In this document: piece after piece, positions 2,746-15,036 of the stretch
Numbering within the stretch: position 1 is the first letter of the stretch
How the letters are laid out: every line of letters starts with the position of its first letter
Assembly: GCA_963842525.1 (NCBI GenBank)
Contig: CAWJGT010000009.1
Span: forward strand, 1,824,001-1,888,000
Length of the DNA: 64,000 bases
Origin: an uncultured Holophagales bacterium
GTDB taxonomy: Bacteria > Acidobacteriota > Thermoanaerobaculia > Multivoradales > UBA5704
Direction of reading: 5' to 3'
Notes under the pieces: model-generated
Seen by the model: the letters and a program-made list of their open reading frames with translations, nothing else
Database searches by the model: none
Told to the model about the DNA's origin: nothing
Program-made: the position numbers and the translations under genes

Positions 2746-3911
2746 TGCTCGCGCTCCCACAGGAAGTCGATCAGCCCTTCGAGGAAGAGCCGCCCCTCCG
2801 GCTGCAGCTCGAATCCGCGCTCGGAGCCCTGGAGCTCCTCGAGGGCCTGGTGCGCCGCCCGCAGCCGCTCGGCCACCATGGCGGTGACCTTGGCGCGGGC
2901 GCCGGTCTCTTCGAGGATCCGTTGCACGCGGGTCACCTCGGCGACCTCCAGGCCGGGATTGCCGAGCGCGGCGTCGAGGGCCTGCCTCTGCTCCGGGGTG
3001 GCCGCGGCGAGGGCGTGATGGATGAGGAACGTGAACTTCCCCTCGCGCAGGTCCTCGCCGACCGGCTTGCCCACGGTCCGGGCGTCGCCGAACATGCCGA
3101 GGAGGTCGTCCTGGAGCTGGAAGGCCTCGCCGATCGCCGCGCCGTAGCGCGAGAGGCCTGCGACGACCTCGTCCGGCGCACCGGTGAGCAGGGCGCCGAG
3201 CTGGATCGGCCGCTCGGCCGTGTAGCAGCCCGACTTCAGCCGCAGCACGCGGAGCAGCTCCTCCTCGCGGCCGGCCGCGGAGGCGTCCGGCGCCTGAAGG
3301 GAGAGGGCCCCGCGGCGCTGTGCCAGCAGCAGCTCCAGGTACTGGCCGCCGATGACCTCCTCGCTCATCGCCGAGAAGCAGCGCGCCAGGCGCCGGCGCC
3401 GCTCGCCGTCCAGGTCCAGGCCGGTGAACAGCTCCACCGCCCAGGTGTGCGCCAGGTCGCCGAGCAGGATGGCCACCGAGCGGCCGAAGTCCTGCGGGTC
3501 GCCGTGGAAGCCGCGCTGCTGGTGCGCCTGGCGGAAGCGGACGTGCGCGGCCGGCTGGCCGCGGCGGACCTCCGCGTGGTCCATGATGTCGTCGTGGATC
3601 AGCAGGTAGGTGTGGATCAGCTCGCACGCCAGGGCGAGGGGGAGGACCTCCTGGTCCGACGGGCCGCCGCAGGCGCGGTAGGTGTAATAGACCAGGGCCG
3701 GCCGCAGGCGCTTGCCCCCCTGGGTGGTGAGCTGGCCGACGCCGTCGATCAGCTCGCTCATCTCGCGCCAGCCGGCCGCCGCCTGCCGCTTGCTCGCCAG
3801 CCAGGCCGCCAGCTCGCGGTCGAGCTTCTCGCGCAAGGCGTCCAGGAGGTCGTGGAACCCGGCGGGCACGTCCTGGTGCCAGGCTGACGGAGCGGCTGTA
3901 GGTCGTCCCAT
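2742..3911 (-). CDS. Polyprenyl diphosphate synthase (GGPP/FPP synthase family)
   Basis: GGKRLRP, first Asp-rich motif LIHDDIMD..RRG, second motif FQLQDDLL, GEDLREGK. Confidence 0.93.
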   Translation of the reverse strand: MGRPTAAPSAWHQDVPAGFHDLLDALREKLDRELAAWLASKRQAAAGWREMSELIDGVGQLTTQGGKRLRPALVYYTYRACGGPSDQEVLPLALACELIHTYLLIHDDIMDHAEVRRGQPAAHVRFRQAHQQRGFHGDPQDFGRSVAILLGDLAHTWAVELFTGLDLDGERRRRLARCFSAMSEEVIGGQYLELLLAQRRGALSLQAPDASAAGREEELLRVLRLKSGCYTAERPIQLGALLTGAPDEVVAGLSRYGAAIGEAFQLQDDLLGMFGDARTVGKPVGEDLREGKFTFLIHHALAAATPEQRQALDAALGNPGLEVAEVTRVQRILEETGARAKVTAMVAERLRAAHQALEELQGSERGFELQPEGRLFLEGLIDFLWEREQ

Positions 3912-9515: not shown

Positions 9516-11411
9516 GCGCCGGACAGACCTATCAGAACCCGGTCTGGCCCGGGTCGTTCCCCGACCCGTTCGTCCTCAAGTTCCGGGGCGAGTACTGGGC
9601 CTACTGCACCGGCTTCTGGACGGACGGCCGCTGCTTCGGGGTCCTCCACTCGCGCGACCTGGTGCGCTGGGAGCCCCGGGCCGGCGCCCTGGAGACCCTT
9701 CCCGGCGGACATCCTTGCTACTGGGCTCCGGAAGTCACCTACGACAACGGCCGCTTCTACCTTTATTACAGTGTCGGCAACGAAGAGCGCATGGAGATCA
9801 GGGTGGCGGTGGCGGACCGGCCGGAAGGGCCGTTCGTCGACAGCGGCCGGCGGCTGACCTCCGAGCCCTTCGCCATCGACGCCCACGTCTTCGCCGCGCC
9901 GGACGGCTCGCGCTGGCTGTTCTATGCCACGGACTTCCTGGAGCACAGCCACATCGGCACCGGCACGGTGCGCGACCGGATGCTCGACCCATACACCCTG
10001 GCCGGCGTTCCGCAGCCGGTCTCCCTGCCGCGCCACGACTGGCACGTCTATCACCCGAACCGGCCGGAGAAGGGGGGAGTGCGCTGGCACACCGTCGAGG
10101 GCCCCTTCGTCCTGGAGCGCAAGGGGCTCCTCTACCAGATGTTCAGCGGCGGCAACTGGCAGAACCCGACCTACGGCGTGAGCTATGCCGTGAGCCCCAG
10201 GGTCGACAGCCCGGGCGAGTGGAAGCAGGCGGCCGACGGCGTGCGGGTCCTGCCGGTCCTGCGCACCCTCCGCGGCGGAGAGGCGGAAGTGATCGGACCC
10301 GGCCACAACTCGGTCGTGCGCGGCCCTGACAACCGGGAGCTCTGGTGCATCTACCACCGCTGGTCCGCCGATTCCAGCGCCCGCGTGCTTTCGATCGATC
10401 CGCTCGACTGGGCCGGCGAACGCCTGCTGGTGCTCGGCCCCTCGACAGCCCCGCAGCCCGCGCCTCGTCCTCCGGTCTTCGTGGACTTCTTTGACGAGCC
10501 AGGAGGCCTCGGGCCGGGATGGGAGACGCTGGGCGGGGCATGGTCCTCGGGAAACCACGCAGCCGTCCAGAGCGAGCCCCAGGGGACCGGTGCAGCCAGC
10601 CGGCGGACCAACACGCCGAGCTTCCTCGTCGAGGTCAGCGCGCGGGCGCTGGACCGCTCCAGGGGCAGCTTCGGCCTTGGCCTGCGGGGACGGGGAGGCC
10701 GGTGGCTCCGCCTTCTGGCCTCCGACCTGCCGTTGCCGCCAGGCTTCGATCCCACCGCCTTCCACCTGCTCCGCCTGGAGGTGGACGGTCTACGCCTCCG
10801 CCTCGAGATCGACGGCGGCGCCGCCCGCTGGCAGGGTCGGCTGGAGCAGCCCGCGGACGAGATCGCCCTCCTCGTCGAAAGGACCGCCGCCGAATTCTCC
10901 GGCTTTTCCCTGTCCGCCGGCTGGGAAGACCTGTTCGAACGACGAGACGTCTCCGGCCGATCTGGGCTGGGACACCGGAGGCGCCGAAGCGTGGGTGGGG
11001 GAGGGCCGGCTCTGGCTCGCCTCCGGCGTGATCACCAAGGGTCCGCCCTTCGAAAGCTACGAGGTGCGGATCAACGCACGTCTGCACGAAGGAGACGGCG
11101 GCTACGTCCTGTTCCCGGCCTGGGGCGAGATGGGGCCGGGACCCGCAATCGAGCTTGTCCTTGCAGACAGGGCCTTGGATGTCGGAGAAGCTGGAGAGGA
11201 GCGCCAATTCCTCCTGCCCTCCGGCTTCGATCCGCGGACCGACCAGCATCTCCGCTTCCGCAAGCACGGCGGTAAGCTGGAGATCTCCTGGGAAGGCACC
11301 ATCCTGGGCACCGTCGCCGCTCCGACCCACCCCACCCGGCTGGCGCTGGGAGCCCGGGGAGGCCGGGTCTCCTTCGAGGCGGTGCGGGTCACGGCCCTGA
11401 TCGACGCTTGA
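9512..11411 (+). CDS. Glycoside hydrolase family 43 with C-terminal beta-sandwich domains; frameshift near 10938
   Basis: YQNPV..FPDPFV, WAPEV, AIDAHVF, VEGPF, GPGHNS; GTG start overlaps GH1 stop. Confidence 0.85.
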
Positions 11412-11418
11412 AGGCCTG

Positions 11419-11639
11419 AGAGGGTGTCTGGAAAACTCTGCTGGGGGCGTCGCCTTGGCCCCTCACCCCCAGCCCCTCTCCCATCCGCACTCCCTTCCCC
11501 CGGGAGGGGGGAGAAATGCATGATCAGGAAGCTCCTGGGTGGGGGCTCCCCTCTCCCGGGCGGGTGTGAGTGCGGATGGGAGAGGGGTCGGGGGTGAGGG
11601 CCCGCGGCGGGACTCGCGCAGGACTTCCAGACACCCTCT
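11419..11639. repeat. MITE-like palindromic element: family A core inside 15-bp terminal inverted repeats
   Basis: AGAGGGTGTCTGGAA (11419-11433) and TTCCAGACACCCTCT (11625-11639) are exact reverse complements. Confidence 0.75.
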
Positions 11640-11799
11640 GATCTACTACGTCCGAGAGTCCTCGTACGGCGCGCAAATTTCTTTTCCATCCGGCCCAACG
11701 GGCTGGGAGAGCGGAGCCCAGGGCTTCTATGTGGGCCACCGGTGTCAAGCGTCTCGGGGTGGTGGTTCGTCGTTTTCCCTTTCCTGGCCCCCCTCCTGT

Positions 11800-12050
11800 C
11801 ACCGGTTTTCTCGCTTCTTGGTTCTCAGTCCGTCTGGCGCTTGCCCGGAGTGTGCAGGGACCTGGGGAGTCGTCCTTTCCAGCTTCTATCCGTGCTGACC
11901 TCTTTGGGTCAGGACACCAAATGCAGCATGCGCTGTCGAGCGACTCAGGCAAGCTCTCGGAGCGGCCCCATCTGAGAGAACGGTTCGGAAGCCGAACCAA
12001 GCCCTGGGCCGGGCACGCTCCACCAGTCGTTTCTCTCCGAGCTTTTTCCT
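11800..12050 (-). ncRNA. Predicted bridge/seek RNA of the IS110-family element (boundaries approximate)
   Basis: Two internal-loop hairpins whose loop segments match the target flank (CCCAGGGCT, CTCAG) and the IS end (ATAGAAG). Confidence 0.65.
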
Positions 12051-12056
12051 CCCAGA

Positions 12057-12580
12057 TTACTTCGTCTTCAGCTCAGCACCCTCAGGAATCACACCGTAGT
12101 CCAGATAGCGCCACAGCGCGATCAGCAGCTTGCGGGCGAGGGCCACGATCCCCACCCGCCGAGATCGGCGGCTCCCAGGACCATAACGCTCCTGAAACCA
12201 CAAGCTCAGGCGACTCTGCGGTTGGAAGCGCAACCAGCCCCAAGCGATCTCGATCGCCATCGCCCGGACCCGACGATTCCCCGCCTTGCTGATCCCTTGT
12301 TCGTGGTTGACCGTGTCACCGCTCTGATAAGGCATCGGCGTCAGACCCGCCAAACCGGCCACCTCACGGCGGTTGCGGAACTGCCGCCAGCCGAAGAACT
12401 CCACCACGAACAGCCAACCACTGTTGCCTCCGATCCCCTTGAGCTCTTGCAGCCGCTGCACCTTCTCCGTCGCTTCCACGCTGGCCGTCCGGCGAAACCG
12501 CTCGAGCTCGGCAATCTGACTCTCCAGCACAGCCAGACGCTCGCCCTCTCGCCTCAAACGCTCTCTCCGCTCCGATTCGA
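12057..12580 (-). pseudogene. IS110-family transposase, C-terminal domain only
   Basis: LKGIG, FRNRREVAGLAGLTPMPYQSG, GISKAGNRRVR, IVALARKLLIALWR; no N-terminal DEDD RuvC-like domain upstream. Confidence 0.88.
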
Positions 12581-12769
12581 ACCTGCCCCGCCCGCGAACC
12601 GCCTCACCAAGGCCGAAATTTGCGCCGAAAGCTCCGAGCTGGCAGCTTCTACGAGTGCGGCTTGGAATATCCGCGCCGGATTCCGCCGCGCTCCGCTTGG
12701 AAGCTCCTGCACACCTGTCGAGAGCGGCCGGACCACTGCCCCTTCGGACGCCGCAACCAGCGCGGCCTG

Positions 12770-13007
12770 CATCACTACGGCGGCGGCCTGCATCACTCGC
12801 ACCCTGGCCTGCGACACTGCTCGGGTGAAGCGAATCATTCCGAAGGTGAAGCACATCACTCCTGTTGTGACCTGATACGCTCCAAAGGTGGCAGGAGTGA
12901 TTCGTGTGATGTTCGGAGTGTCTCGCGGATCGGCGTGTGTGATGCGCGATCCGGCGGGAGTGTTGCGCTTCGAAGGCGAGGTGATGCAGATCACGGCAGG
13001 AGTGATG
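12770..13007. repeat. Inverted pair of 21-bp-period motif arrays (CATCACT x5, AGTGATG x6)
   Basis: Motif starts at 12770, 12791, 12812, 12833, 12854 and, reversed, 12896, 12917, 12938, 12959, 12980, 13001. Confidence 0.7.
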
Positions 13008-13414
13008 TCAGTCGTGATGCACGAGAGCGCGGAGTGTTCGGGTGCATTGCGGCGCAGGATCGCTATGCCCAAGGAGCTGAAGCGCCTGGTGCCGAGACCG
13101 CGCCGTGTGTCCTCCAGGCTCAGCCGTATGCAGCGCGCCGATCTTGTCGTAGGCCGAGGCGACTTGGCCGGTCCTCAGAAGCGGCTCGAAAGTCCTCGCC
13201 AGCGAACAGACTCGACCCGCTGGTGATCCAGGTCCGTCGTGTCATCCTGTGAGCGTAGCGAAGGATCTGGGCGGTGGGAACGGCCCCCACCAGCGTCATG
13301 TGGCACGACCTTTATTTCTCCGTGCGTTGATTCATTTTTTCACCGGTTCAATTCTCCACTGCGCCAATTCCTCACCCGCGGCGGTACCGGGCCGGTGCGC
13401 CGCCCGCCCGTTCC

Positions 13415-13506
13415 ACCGCCCCTGAAGGGGCTCGAAAACGAAATCGGAGCCACCTGATCCCCGGGTTGAAACCCGGGTCTACGTGCCGGCGCCCACAAGG
13501 GGCGCT
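13415..13506. repeat. REP-like hairpin cluster (GCCCCTGAAGGGGC, CCCGGGTTGAAACCCGGG, GCGCCC..GGGCGC)
   Basis: Short perfect hairpins; a related cluster lies at 14636-14726. Confidence 0.65.
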
Positions 13507-14189
13507 CCCCCCGGTCCCCCGGAGCTTTGCGGGCGAGGGCTGGGCGATTGAGGCACCGCAAGCACACGCAGAGCCATATAGCCGAGTAGCAGGCCAATGC
13601 CGAAGATCAGCGTGACTCCGTACGTGCGGGGATGCGAAGCGGGATTCAACAACCGGACCGTGATGTCACCGAAGATTCCCGCCGGATCCGTCAGGACTTC
13701 CCAACTGTTCCAGCGCAGGAACCGTCCGAGATAGATCCCGAATCCGGACAAGAAGAGCGAGCCGGCGGCGACGATCCAGCCTGCCACGCGACCGTGCCGC
13801 TCCTCCACGGCGCCTTGGACTTCGAGGAGAGAGATGTACCCGAGCAGGAGCCCCGTGCCGGCACAGGAGAGCAGGAGAGCGAGGTCATACCACAGCGGGA
13901 CCAGCGGCCGTGGTGCGAGGTGGAGCAGGTCCGTCAGGATGTAAGGTGCGTTCGGGAGGAAGAGAAGCCAGAGGGTGAACCATCCGAGCCGGAGCAGCCT
14001 GGGACCACGGCGCTGACTCGAAGCCCGGAAGGCCTGAGCCGCCAGCCACGGAATCCAGGCGAGAAAGAGATTCCACCACAGGAATACGTAGGAGAGGGAA
14101 CCCGAGCGCTCCACCCGCAGCATGAGGAGAGCGATGCACCAGAGAGTCAGCACACCGGGGATGGTCCATCGCGTGGCATCAGTTCTCAT
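13479..14189 (-). CDS. DUF1361-family membrane protein
   Basis: WNLFLAWIP, WLLFLPNAPYILTDLLHL, GIYLGRFLRWNSW; multiple TM segments. Confidence 0.88.
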   Translation of the reverse strand: MRTDATRWTIPGVLTLWCIALLMLRVERSGSLSYVFLWWNLFLAWIPWLAAQAFRASSQRRGPRLLRLGWFTLWLLFLPNAPYILTDLLHLAPRPLVPLWYDLALLLSCAGTGLLLGYISLLEVQGAVEERHGRVAGWIVAAGSLFLSGFGIYLGRFLRWNSWEVLTDPAGIFGDITVRLLNPASHPRTYGVTLIFGIGLLLGYMALRVLAVPQSPSPRPQSSGGPGGAPLVGAGT

Positions 14190-14331
14190 GATCAGAATAG
14201 ATGCTTCAGGAACGGCGCGCAGAAGGCCGGATTATGGCAAGCCGGTGGGAGATCGTGGCGAAATCGTGGCTTTACTCATCTGATCGACTACCTCCGAGAA
14301 TCCTCGTGCGGCGCGCAGATTTCGTCTCCAT

Positions 14332-14579
14332 CCGGCCCAACGCGCCGGCAGAACGGAGCCCAAGGCATCTGAGGCCGAAGGCCGATGCCCTGGGCAGAGA
14401 GGTGATCAAACCCCGCGGCCTGAAAGGCTCGCGAGAGATTTCTGCCGGAGTCGGCTCAGCGCTCGGTTCAGCCAGAGGTCTCGCGGCCTTTCAGGCCGCC
14501 TGAACGTGGGGCCTGTTGACCCAGGGCATCGGCCTTCGGCCTCAGCCCTGGGCTGGAGTCTCCCGGCCCGTTGGGCCGG
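14332..14579. repeat. About 250-bp long palindromic (REPIN-like) element, family B; intact form of the IS110 target
   Basis: CCGGCCCAACG/CGTTGGGCCGG, TGAGGCCGAAGGCCGATGCCCTGGG/CCCAGGGCATCGGCCTTCGGCCTCA and GCGGCCTGAAAGG/CCTTTCAGGCCGC nested arms. Confidence 0.85.
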
Positions 14580-14635
14580 CCTGGAAGGCTTGGGTTGCGG
14601 GCAAGCGTGAGCCGCTCTGAGAGGGTCTGGAATCA

Positions 14636-14726
14636 GCCCCGCAGGGGCGGTCGGAATTAGCCCGGGATTTCAATCCCGGGAACCGAGCACATTTCAACCC
14701 ACCGGAGCCCCGGCAGGGGCGACAGG
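14636..14726. repeat. REP-like hairpin cluster (GCCCCGCAGGGGC, CCCGGGATTTCAATCCCGGG, GCCCCGGCAGGGGC)
   Basis: Same architecture as 13415-13506 in the opposite orientation. Confidence 0.65.
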
Positions 14727-14784
14727 AATTCACGTGGCGAGGCTCATTCCGTCCGGATCTGCGGGGCTCGATTTTAAACTGTGA

Positions 14785-15036
14785 TCATGGCGTCGTCAGG
14801 ACATGATAGCCCAGGAGGGCGGCGAAGACCAGGAAGAGGATGCCTGGGTAGACGAAGAGGTGTGCCCGCTCGTGCGAGGGGATCTGGAGCTTGCGAAGAC
14901 CGAATGCGGGAAAAGCGAAGTAGATGGCGGCGATCTGCGCCAGCTCGGCGAGGGTGTAGGTGGCTGGCGATCGGAGGATGGTCACTTCCGCTTGCATCGT
15001 CATGATGATAGCAGCTTCACGCCCCTCGCGTTCCAT
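14785..15036 (-). CDS. Small hypothetical membrane protein
   Basis: GGAGGG SD before ATG; two hydrophobic segments. Confidence 0.45.
   Translation of the reverse strand: MEREGREAAIIMTMQAEVTILRSPATYTLAELAQIAAIYFAFPAFGLRKLQIPSHERAHLFVYPGILFLVFAALLGYHVLTTP

What the first reader, a model, noticed from the sequence alone, without database searches (positions are those of the whole stretch)
11717..12056. IS110 non-coding end contains a readable bridge RNA programmed against a host palindromic repeat
Seen, on the transposase strand: outer stem (12011-12021 with 11959-11968), guide CCCAGGGCT (12000-12008), inner hairpin GGTTCGG/CCGAACC (11982-11998), guide CTCAG (11972-11976). The two guides together specify CCCAGGG-CT-GAG. 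The IS junction reads CCCAGGGCT (11717-11725), and the intact repeat has CTCAGCCCTGGG at 14541-14552. A second loop with hairpin CTGACC/GGTCAG (11895-11912) carries ATAGAAG (11883-11889), identical to the IS terminus at 11724-11730. An outward TTGACA lies at 11743-11748. Known: IS110/IS1111 recombinases use bridge/seek RNAs with target- and donor-binding loops, and circularisation forms a junction promoter. Inference: a natural bridge RNA with a CT/AG core that targets a REPIN-like family.
Basis: partly seen in the sequence, partly recalled or inferred. Interest (0 to 1): 0.8.

Follow-up and report, generated by a model that had tools for sequence, protein, structure and literature searches.

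The report
Bridge RNA gene in truncated IS
The stretch is the tail of a broken jumping gene that still carries an intact guide RNA gene aimed at the host's own palindromic repeats, a well-supported but already known kind of RNA-guided transposon.

Summary
Window 11724-12563 (minus strand) is the 3' part, positions 715-1555, of a 1555-bp IS110-family element. That element has five full-length copies elsewhere in the genome. The window copy lacks the left end and transposase residues 1-220. Its 3' non-coding end holds a ~200-nt structured RNA gene (11830-12028) that a covariance model finds in 39 of 43 loci tested. 36 of its 46 base pairs show compensatory changes. The two target guides match the flanks. 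Three sibling IS lineages in this genome have different guides and correspondingly different insertion sites. Across 36 homologues, the 5' guide matches its own right flank at a mean of 7.6 of 9 positions, against 4.7 for other elements' flanks (0 of 10000 permutations). Donor guides match the IS ends. The target is a REP-like repeat bracketing RAYT-type genes. This is a new member of a known kind: an IS1111-style bridge/seek RNA element that targets REPs. No RNA or activity data could be obtained. The copy in the window cannot move by itself.

The parts
12057..12563 (-). 3' part of the IS transposase gene (IS positions ~715-1221; residues 221-378 are 100% identical to the full-length protein), with the PF02371 C-terminal domain and the GL-P----SG motif. 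The N-terminal DEDD domain is missing.
   Evidence: the motif was read in the translation
11830..12028 (-). Bridge/seek RNA gene, matching covariance model R1 end to end at 181.2 bits, the same score as the five full-length copies.
12023..12026 (-). 5' half of closing stem P0 (CUGG); it pairs with CCAG at 11834-11837.
   Evidence: (helix 1, 97.5% paired, 3 of 4 pairs with double changes)
12011..12021 (-). 5' strand of the outer stem of the target-binding arm (GGAGCG-U-GCCC).
   Evidence: helix 2, 98.7% paired, 7 of 10 pairs with double changes
12000..12008 (-). 5' target guide CCCAGGGCU, the reverse complement of core AG plus right flank CCCTGGG.
11982..11998 (-). Inner hairpin of the target-binding loop.
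   Evidence: helix 3
11972..11976 (-). 3' target guide CUCAG, identical to left flank CTC plus core AG.
11959..11968 (-). 3' strand of the outer stem of the target-binding arm (GGGC-CGCUCC).
11948..11954 (-). 5' strand of the stem closing the donor-binding arm (GCUUGCC); it pairs with GGCAAGC at 11839-11845.
   Evidence: (helix 4, all 7 pairs with double changes)
11921..11924 (-). 5' donor guide GCAU, the reverse complement of left-end positions 1-4 (ATGC).
11895..11912 (-). Hairpin of the donor-binding arm (CUGACC/GGUCAG).
   Evidence: helix 7
11883..11889 (-). 3' donor guide AUAGAAG, identical to the right-end terminus.
11743..11748 (-). Outward-facing TTGACA, 19 nt from the IS end; a candidate -35 of a circle-junction promoter.
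11724..11737 (-). Right-end terminus (subterminal repeat GGCCCACATAG, then AAG). The terminal AG is the core dinucleotide.
11638..11723 (-). Right half of the interrupted REP-like target repeat (CCCTGGGCT..CCAGCCCGTTGGGCCGG..).
14280..14625 (.). Uninterrupted copy of the target repeat (an inverted pair of ~105-nt units) with an intact target site at 14541-14552.

Best explanation
Window 11724-12563 (minus strand) is the 3' remnant of a 1555-bp IS110-family insertion sequence with the IS1111-style layout: an 84-nt left end, a 378-aa RNA-guided DEDD transposase and a 334-nt right end. The right end encodes a ~200-nt bridge (seek) RNA made of a closing stem and two arms. In the first arm an internal loop carries two target guides. 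CCCAGGGCU pairs with the transposase-sense strand at core AG plus the right flank. CUCAG pairs with the opposite strand at the left flank plus core. Together they specify CCCAGGG-CT-GAG, the asymmetric arm of a REP-like palindrome. In the second arm GCAU and AUAGAAG pair with the two ends of the element as they meet in an excised circle. The transposase, loaded with this RNA, would bring the circle junction and the target together and exchange strands at the shared AG/CT dinucleotide, inserting the element without a duplication. Shown here: the anatomy, the conserved and covarying RNA structure, guide-target and guide-donor covariation, and site-specific insertion of all copies. Inferred from the family: transcription, RNA-protein binding, the circle and the chemistry. 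The copy in the window has lost its left end and catalytic domain. It cannot excise or make enzyme. Its RNA gene is intact and identical to those of the five full-length copies, so at most it adds RNA in trans.
For: (1) Copies and boundaries: there are five full-length copies at 99.7-100% identity, and the window copy equals IS positions 715-1555. The flanks align only outside ATGCTATGC...CATAGAAG.
(2) Protein: NF033542 'IS110 family RNA-guided transposase' scores 183 bits against a cut-off of 140. PF02371 matches at 3e-17. The C-terminal domain resembles the ISCro4 and IS621 transposases in the PDB.
(3) Three lineages in this genome share the scaffold but differ in guides and sites. Lineage A has guides CCCAGGGCU/CUCAG at CTC-AG|AG-CCCTGGG. 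Lineage B has GGCGGAGCU/CUCAG at CTC-AG|AG-CTCCGCC. Lineage C has CGCCAGGCU/UAAAG at TAA-AG|AG-CCTGGCG.
(4) Homologues: 40 loci came from other genomes. Model R1 matches 39 of 43 sources. 91.8% of cells are paired against 74.1% in shuffles, 36 of 46 pairs have double changes, and the covariation score is 0.48 against 0.17 shuffled (0 of 500) and 0.05-0.07 with partners slid.
(5) Guide versus flank: for the 5' guide the cognate mean is 7.61 of 9 (15 at 9/9, 8 at 8/9, n=36) against 4.72 for 1076 non-cognate pairs, with 0 of 10000 permutations reaching the observed value. For the 3' guide, positions -1, -2 and -3 match in 25, 22 and 23 of 30. After clustering guides, 12 of 21 clusters score at least 8/9.
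(6) Donor: the 4-mer equals the reverse complement of left-end positions 1-4 in 21 of 29 loci. Variants GUAU, GGAU (x3), UUAU and GUUU follow their left ends, with 0 of 10000 permutations. L049 has AUGGAAG with right end CATGGAAG.
(7) Target: 12 of the 13 exact 12-mers in the genome lie in one repeat family. That family gives 50 BLAST hits and brackets three RAYT-type genes.
(8) Literature: IS1111-type elements carry the RNA downstream of the transposase gene, with the top-strand complement 5' of the bottom-strand match, and recombine at a shared dinucleotide (PMC11187229 sections 6, 8, 9 and passages; PMC11208160 passages; PMC12288879 passages).
Against: No expression or activity data exist. 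No listed sequencing run is on record as RNA, and contigs cannot show transcripts. Folding the single sequence is no better than shuffles. The covariation counts come from an alignment fitted to my own hand-drawn structure, which favours that structure. RNAalifold on the unfitted MAFFT alignment recovered only 19 pairs, 11 of them with compensatory changes. In 9 of 36 homologues the 5' guide matches its right flank at only 5-6 of 9 positions (L035, L039, L052, L053, L055, L057, L058, L059, L061). 8 of 29 donor 4-mers have one or two mismatches. Rows are not phylogenetically independent. G-U pairs outnumber A-C only modestly (77 against 46), so the strand of the RNA rests mainly on family knowledge. 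No sigma-70-like promoter or terminator was found in 11600-13000. The window copy lacks the left end that would complete a junction promoter, so this particular copy may be silent.
Confidence: 0.9

Rival explanations
1. The RNA gene is genuine for the family, but the locus in the window is a dead fossil. Truncation removed the left end, the promoter context and the enzyme, so nothing is made or done here. The 100% identity only reflects a recent breakage.
For: Only residues 221-378 of the transposase are encoded anywhere in the 64-kb window. The sequence upstream of 12563 is unrelated to the IS. No promoter-like site lies in 11600-13000. In IS1111-type elements the only recognisable promoter is the one formed at the circle junction (PMC11187229, section 8). 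This copy cannot form that junction.
Against: The retained 840 nt differ from the full-length copies by one base in a G run, and the RNA gene scores the same 181.2 bits. Read-through from the chimeric ORF 12057-12854 or from upstream is not excluded. The five intact copies could load its RNA in trans.
Confidence: 0.5
2. The conserved right end acts as DNA, not as RNA. It would provide transposase-binding sites or a single-stranded DNA fold, with target-like segments that serve as DNA-level homology for site choice.
For: Base-pair covariation cannot by itself tell RNA from single-stranded DNA. The excess of G-U over A-C is modest (77 against 46). No RNA data were obtained.
Against: The split guides pair with opposite strands on either side of a hairpin inside a covarying stem. 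This is the published RNA architecture. For IS1111-type elements the RNA was co-purified with the transposase, sequenced and shown to be essential (PMC11187229, sections 8-9 and abstract). The protein matches NCBI's 'RNA-guided transposase' model.
Confidence: 0.04
3. The complementarity between the loop segments and the flanks is coincidence in a G+C-rich, repeat-rich genome.
For: CCCAGGGCT as a 9-mer is not rare in this genome (231 copies against 264 expected from composition).
Against: Three lineages change guide and site together. Only 3 of 1076 non-cognate pairs reach 8/9, against 23 of 36 cognate pairs. No permutation of 10000 reaches the observed mean on either arm.
Confidence: 0.01

Closest known systems
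IS1111-type seekRNA / bridge RNA elements (ISEc11, ISPa11, ISKpn4; Siddiquee et al. 2024, PMC11187229; Durrant et al. 2024, PMC11208160)
   Same: [quoted passage not shown] Subterminal CTATG/CATAG repeats leave a 7-nt left and a 3-nt right extension if one AG is counted with the left end. The GL-P----SG motif is present. An outward -35 sits at the right end. ISPa11 also targets a REP.
   Different: The transposase has 378 aa against the 330-350 aa quoted for IS1111 transposases. The subterminal repeat is short and imperfect (about 9-11 bp with 2-3 mismatches, against 11-13 bp near-perfect). The host is an Acidobacteriota-like soil genome. Phylogenetic placement was not tested. Siddiquee et al. 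also describe an IS110-type group with a downstream non-coding region, and this element could belong there.
IS621 bridge RNA (IS110 group; Durrant et al. 2024; Hiraizumi et al. 2024, PMC11208158)
   Same: It has two loops, one for the target and one for the donor. Each loop has a 5' and a 3' guide pairing with opposite strands around a CT/AG core. It targets REPs and inserts without a scar.
   Different: In IS621 the RNA lies in the left end, upstream of the gene. Here it lies in the right end, and the recombination geometry is inverted relative to the transposase gene. Here the donor guides sit in a multi-branch region between three hairpins. The 5' donor guide is only 4 nt, and the two bases that would face the core are not complementary to it. 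The proteins resemble each other only in the C-terminal domain (E 2.6e-5).
ISPpu9 / ISPpu10 of Pseudomonas putida (PMC12288879; Tobes and Pareja 2006, seen only as a reference)
   Same: They are IS110-family elements inserted at a fixed position in REP sequences, with crossover at an AG dinucleotide present at both junctions. Truncated 'tnp fragments occur next to an RNA gene.
   Different: ISPpu9 has its own strong promoter, forms no junction promoter and carries extra small RNAs (Asr9, Ssr9). None of these was looked for or seen here.
REP / REPIN repeats with RAYT transposases
   Same: The target is a ~105-nt unit of three hairpins. It gives 50 BLAST hits in the genome, is often found as inverted pairs, and brackets three Y1-transposase (PF01797) genes on contig C34.
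   Different: Whether these Y1 transposases mobilise the repeat was not tested. Copy number is low compared with classic REPs.

Membership tests
IS110-family RNA-guided (bridge/seek RNA) insertion sequence | Transposase with an N-terminal DEDD RuvC-like domain and a C-terminal PF02371 domain with a conserved Ser | tested here: met
   For the full-length copies: NF033542 scores 183 bits (cut-off 140) and PF02371 63 bits. PF01548 scores only 22.3 bits, below its cut-off of 29. The SG motif was read in the sequence. The window copy itself keeps only residues 221-378.
IS110-family RNA-guided (bridge/seek RNA) insertion sequence | A non-coding end encodes a conserved structured RNA | tested here: met
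   Model R1 matches 39 of 43 sources. 36 of 46 pairs have compensatory changes, and the covariation score is 0.48 against 0.17 in shuffles. Caveat: the alignment was fitted to the model.
IS110-family RNA-guided (bridge/seek RNA) insertion sequence | Loop segments complementary to both strands of the target around the insertion point | tested here: met
   9 of 36 homologues match poorly on the right arm.
IS110-family RNA-guided (bridge/seek RNA) insertion sequence | Loop segments complementary to the donor (the joined IS ends) | tested here: met
   AUAGAAG equals the right-end terminus, with one covarying case (L049). The 4-mer equals the reverse complement of left-end positions 1-4 in 21 of 29 loci, and variants covary.
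IS110-family RNA-guided (bridge/seek RNA) insertion sequence | A core dinucleotide shared by target and donor, and no target duplication | tested here: met
   The empty site reads ..CTC-AG-CCCTGGG. The occupied site reads ..CTC-AG-[IS]-AG-CCCTGGG.
IS110-family RNA-guided (bridge/seek RNA) insertion sequence | The RNA is made, binds the transposase and is needed for recombination | not testable with these tools
   No RNA holder was listed, and contigs show nothing about transcripts.
IS1111 subgroup | The longer non-coding region lies downstream of the transposase gene | tested here: met
   The left end has 84 nt before the start codon. The right end has 334 nt after the stop.
IS1111 subgroup | Subterminal inverted repeats of 11-13 bp, near-perfect, with 7-bp left and 3-bp right extensions | tested here: inconclusive
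   CTATGCAGGGC compared with CTATGTGGGCC gives 8 of 11 matches ungapped. The extensions fit 7 and 3 if one AG is counted with the left end. CTATG/CATAG is conserved in homologues. This was done by inspection, not by a tool.
IS1111 subgroup | [quoted passage not shown] | tested here: met
   The 5' guide is complementary to the transposase-sense strand and the 3' guide to the other strand. The criterion comes from PMC11187229.
IS1111 subgroup | Transposase of 330-350 aa that clusters with IS1111 transposases | tested here: not met
   The length is 378 aa. No tree with reference IS1111 or IS110 proteins was built.
Rfam RNA families | A match to a curated covariance model | tested here: not met
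   No bridge-RNA-like family matched 11000-15000 at E up to 1.
REP/REPIN-RAYT system (the target) | A short palindromic intergenic repeat family, inverted pairs and an associated Y1 (RAYT) transposase flanked by the repeat | tested here: met
   The unit gives 50 BLAST hits. The copy at 14332-14579 matches itself in inverse orientation. Three PF01797 genes on C34 are bracketed by exact target sites.

The most novel reading that the evidence does not exclude
Three sibling bridge-RNA elements in one genome have diverged mainly by swapping target guides. Each lineage now parasitises a different host repeat family, one of them the REP family of a RAYT system (a transposon that lives on another transposon's repeats). 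The transposase-less copy in the window would persist as a free-standing guide-RNA gene, loaded in trans by the enzyme of the intact copies.
Probability: 0.15. Interest if true: 0.5.

Novelty: new member of a known kind. Interest (0 to 1): 0.3.

Why it matters
The locus shows that a bridge RNA can be read from raw sequence and verified purely by comparison. The genome offers a natural reprogramming series: three lineages share one scaffold but have three guide sets and three repeat targets. The roughly 35 homologues from several phyla share a ~200-nt scaffold with about 21 distinct guide classes. This is a ready-made data set for the rules of guide length, register and mismatch tolerance in the less-studied type with the RNA in the right end. 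It does not change what is known about the mechanism.

Tried and rejected
Single-sequence folding of 11855-12035 and 11724-12056 gave z-scores of -0.90 and -0.33. It gave no support and did not show the outer stem.

RNAalifold on the MAFFT alignment A1 recovered only 19 pairs because indels in the hairpins were misaligned. I therefore drew the structure by hand on a 14-sequence seed and built a covariance model.

An Rfam scan of 11000-15000 at E up to 1 found no bridge-RNA family. It returned only Acido-Lenti-1 and spurious miRNA hits on a palindrome.

Expression: no RNA holder was listed. I laid contigs of three runs guessed to be RNA, plus the best DNA holder. The contigs were short pieces of relatives 90-99% alike and say nothing about transcription.

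The promoter and terminator scan of 11600-13000 found 0 of each. Tandem Repeats Finder found nothing in 12500-13400.

I looked for the missing 5' half of the IS in the window with tblastn and found none. Pfam found nothing in ORF 12554-13072.

I considered that repeat variants with three extra bases at the target might be excision footprints. I rejected this because the extra ATC simply completes a perfect 11-bp palindrome with GATGCCCTGGG on the other arm.

My first regular expressions for the donor motif and the right end were wrong and found almost nothing. They were corrected.

L061 was left out of alignment A1 because of insertions. L033, L040, L042, L046 and L051 were left out because the donor motif was not found. 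The model later matched L033 weakly and L061.

Supplementary files of the papers were not opened. The supplementary tables of PMC11208160 and PMC11187229 may list this or a near-identical IS. The search for homologous proteins, the search of protein representatives, structure prediction and complex prediction were not used.

Full report
WHAT IS THERE

The ORF 12057-12854 on the minus strand carries only the C-terminal IS110-family domain PF02371 (E 2.2e-17).

A search of the window's own genome (G000, 9.95 Mb, 34 contigs) found a 1555-bp element with five full-length copies at 99.7-100% identity (two on C11, one each on C21, C30 and C34). The window copy equals positions 715-1555 only, at window 12563 down to 11724, and is 99.9% identical. 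A 58-nt right-end fragment lies on C12. There are also two sibling lineages: B (2 copies, 89.5% identity) and C (4 copies, 76.6-76.7%).

tblastn with the full-length protein finds residues 221-378 in the window and nothing else. The window therefore holds a 5'-truncated relic without left end or catalytic domain. The sequence upstream of 12563 is unrelated to the IS.

THE ELEMENT

The full-length copy encodes a 378-aa protein. It passes NCBIfam NF033542 'IS110 family RNA-guided transposase' at 183 bits against a cut-off of 140. It matches PF02371 and, weakly, PF01548. Its C-terminal domain resembles the ISCro4 and IS621 transposases in the PDB.

The left end has 84 nt before the start codon and the right end has 334 nt after the stop. 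Aligning the five full copies with their flanks fixes the boundaries. The left flank ends ...CCCAGGGCATCGGCCTTCGGCCTC-AG and the element begins ATGCTATGCAGGGC. The element ends ...CCCACATAGA-AG and the right flank is CCCTGGGCT. The uninterrupted site reads ...CTC-AG-CCCTGGG with one AG. Insertion is therefore a crossover at a shared AG (CT on the other strand), without duplication.

GUIDE-TARGET COVARIATION IN THIS GENOME

Lineages A, B and C share the scaffold GGAGCGUGCCCG...AUGGGGCCGCUCC but differ in the two loop segments, and their insertion sites differ in step.

- Lineage A has guides CCCAGGGCU and CUCAG. Its flanks are CTC-AG | AG-CCCTGGG.
- Lineage B has guides GGCGGAGCU and CUCAG. Its flanks are CTC-AG | AG-CTCCGCC.
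- Lineage C has guides CGCCAGGCU and UAAAG. Its flanks are TAA-AG | AG-CCTGGCG, with one copy reading CCTGGGG.

The donor segments (GCAU..., AUAGAAG) and the IS ends are the same in all three lineages.

HOMOLOGUES ELSEWHERE

A scan of one genome per species returned 40 loci at 44-90% protein identity. They come from Thermoanaerobaculia and other Acidobacteriota, delta-proteobacteria, Chloroflexota, Planctomycetota and other groups. 35 of the 40 have the motif CGGATAGAAG 157-288 nt after the stop codon.

I drew a structure by hand on a 14-sequence seed. It has these helices:
- closing stem P0;
- target arm P1a, P1b and an inner hairpin;
- donor arm P2 with hairpins P3, P4 and P5.

From this seed I built the covariance model R1 with 191 positions and 46 pairs.

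R1 matches 39 of 43 sources, giving 40 hits because L027 has two copies. It finds nothing in L040, L042, L046 or L051. In the window's genome it finds exactly the 12 copies of lineages A, B and C, including window 11830-12028. Only 150 of about 9700 first-look candidates were scored.

On the model-fitted alignment 91.8% of cells pair, against 74.1% in shuffles. 36 of 46 pairs show changes on both sides. The covariation score is 0.48, against 0.17 in shuffles (0 of 500 reach it) and 0.05-0.07 with partners slid by 1-3 columns. The fitted alignment favours the structure. The unfitted RNAalifold run gave 19 pairs, 11 of them with compensatory changes.

GUIDES VERSUS FLANKS ACROSS HOMOLOGUES

Right ends (TTGACA, then 12-17 nt, then CATAGAAG) and left ends (AG-AT.CTATG) were located by pattern.

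- 5' guide. Its best 9-nt window was compared with the reverse complement of AG plus the right flank. The cognate mean is 7.61 (n=36): 15 at 9/9, 8 at 8/9, 4 at 7/9, 2 at 6/9 and 7 at 5/9. For 1076 non-cognate pairs with unlike guides the mean is 4.72, and only 3 reach 8/9. No permutation of 10000 reaches the observed mean. An earlier MAFFT-based count gave the same picture.
- Clustered guides. After clustering guides that are at least 8/9 alike, 12 of 21 clusters score at least 8/9.
- 3' guide. Positions -1, -2 and -3 before the core match the left flank in 25, 22 and 23 of 30 loci. Positions -4, -5 and -6 match in 13, 14 and 5 of 30.
- Poor matches on the right arm: L035, L039, L052, L053, L055, L057, L058, L059 and L061. 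Possible causes are mis-assigned ends, rearranged flanks, decayed copies or a different register. I did not resolve them.

DONOR SIDE

AUAGAAG is identical to the right-end terminus in nearly all loci. In L049 both change together, to AUGGAAG and CATGGAAG.

The 4-mer that lies two bases before the GGUG of hairpin P4 equals the reverse complement of left-end positions 1-4 in 21 of 29 loci. Seven loci have one mismatch and one has two. The variants GUAU, GGAU (three loci), UUAU and GUUU follow their left ends. No permutation of 10000 reaches the observed value. The two bases that would face the core are variable and not complementary to it.

THE TARGET

12 of the 13 exact copies of CCCAGGGCTGAG in the genome lie in one repeat unit of three hairpins. 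The 14-mer occurs 11 times against 0.57 expected from composition. The unit gives 50 BLAST hits. 42 of these cover the target position and 12 carry the exact site.

The copy at 14280-14625 is an inverted pair of units. On contig C34 three PF01797 (Y1/RAYT-type) genes are each bracketed by exact target sites, and one IS copy sits in such a repeat. The label 'REPIN-like' is therefore justified.

Lineage C targets another repeat: its 16-mer occurs 14 times against 0.01 expected.

JUNCTION PROMOTER

TTGACA is exact in 34 of 40 model hits and lies 18-19 nt from the IS end in 34 of the 36 loci where the right-end pattern was found. In a circle it would be followed, after 17-18 nt, by G plus left-end positions 1-5 (GATNNT). 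In that hexamer A2 and T6 are invariant, and 3-5 of 6 positions match TATAAT, in 26 of 27 loci with both ends found. This fits the published junction promoters of IS1111-type elements (PMC11187229, sections 7-8). It is an inference, and the -10 element is weak.

COMPARISON WITH WHAT IS KNOWN

Durrant et al. predicted bridge RNAs in the right end of 93% of IS1111 elements and state that REPs are common targets (PMC11208160, passages read). Siddiquee et al. showed that IS1111-type seekRNAs come from the downstream non-coding region, bind the transposase and are essential. They also showed that these RNAs carry the top-strand complement 5' of the bottom-strand match, and they describe natural reprogramming (PMC11187229; abstract and sections 6, 8, 9 and 13 read, with passages). 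ISPpu9 inserts in REPs with an AG crossover (PMC12288879, passages).

The present element fits this type in layout, guide order, core, the GL-P----SG motif and end geometry. It departs in protein length (378 aa) and in its imperfect subterminal repeat. Its subgroup is not settled. It is a new member of a known kind.

WHAT THE WINDOW COPY DOES

It cannot excise or encode enzyme. Its RNA gene is intact and identical to those of the active-looking copies. Whether it is transcribed is unknown: no promoter-like site was found and no RNA data exist. I put about even odds on it being silent.

Noticed in passing
window 14635-14680 (-), and 14631-14729: Rfam Acido-Lenti-1 RNA (RF01687) matches at 49.8 bits, above its gathering score of 37. 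The surrounding ~100 nt is itself a repeat with about 30 BLAST copies in the genome.
   Followed up: no
window 11459-11601: A ~145-nt near-perfect palindrome directly beside the IS remnant. It belongs to a very abundant repeat family (well over 100 BLAST hits in the genome) and gives spurious miRNA hits in Rfam.
   Followed up: no
G000 C34:527600-531700 (loci L077-L079): Three Y1/RAYT-type transposase genes lie in tandem, each bracketed by the IS target repeat in inverted orientation. One full-length IS copy (528531-530085) is inserted in one of these repeats.
   Followed up: partly
L061:2603-2840: A Chloroflexota homologue of the RNA carries ~21-25-nt hairpin-like insertions inside both 3' guides, after UUAG in the target loop and inside AUAG^AAG in the donor loop. 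This is unexplained.
   Followed up: no
L027:2676-2862 (+) and 3246-3432 (-): Two copies of the RNA gene, and hence two IS copies, face each other about 400 nt apart. They have the same 5' guide but different 3' guides.
   Followed up: no
genome-wide copies of the target repeat: Some repeat copies have three extra bases at the target (CCCAGGGCATCTGAG), which makes a perfect 11-bp palindrome with the other arm. The IS target is the shorter, asymmetric arm, and this asymmetry would fix the orientation of insertion (and reasoning from the sequence).
   Followed up: partly
window 12564-13300: The sequence that replaces the 5' half of the IS is of unknown nature. It has 71-73% similarity to C3:1028973-1029333 and C9:1108943-1109165. 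It has no Pfam match and no tandem repeat. It creates the chimeric ORF 12057-12854.
   Followed up: partly
G000 C12:20672-20729: A solo 58-nt fragment of the IS right end (96.6% identity) lies next to the target repeat. It is possibly a further decayed insertion.
   Followed up: no
window 13479-14189 (-): A DUF1361 membrane protein gene (PF07099, E 3.5e-44) lies between the IS remnant and the intact repeat.
   Followed up: no
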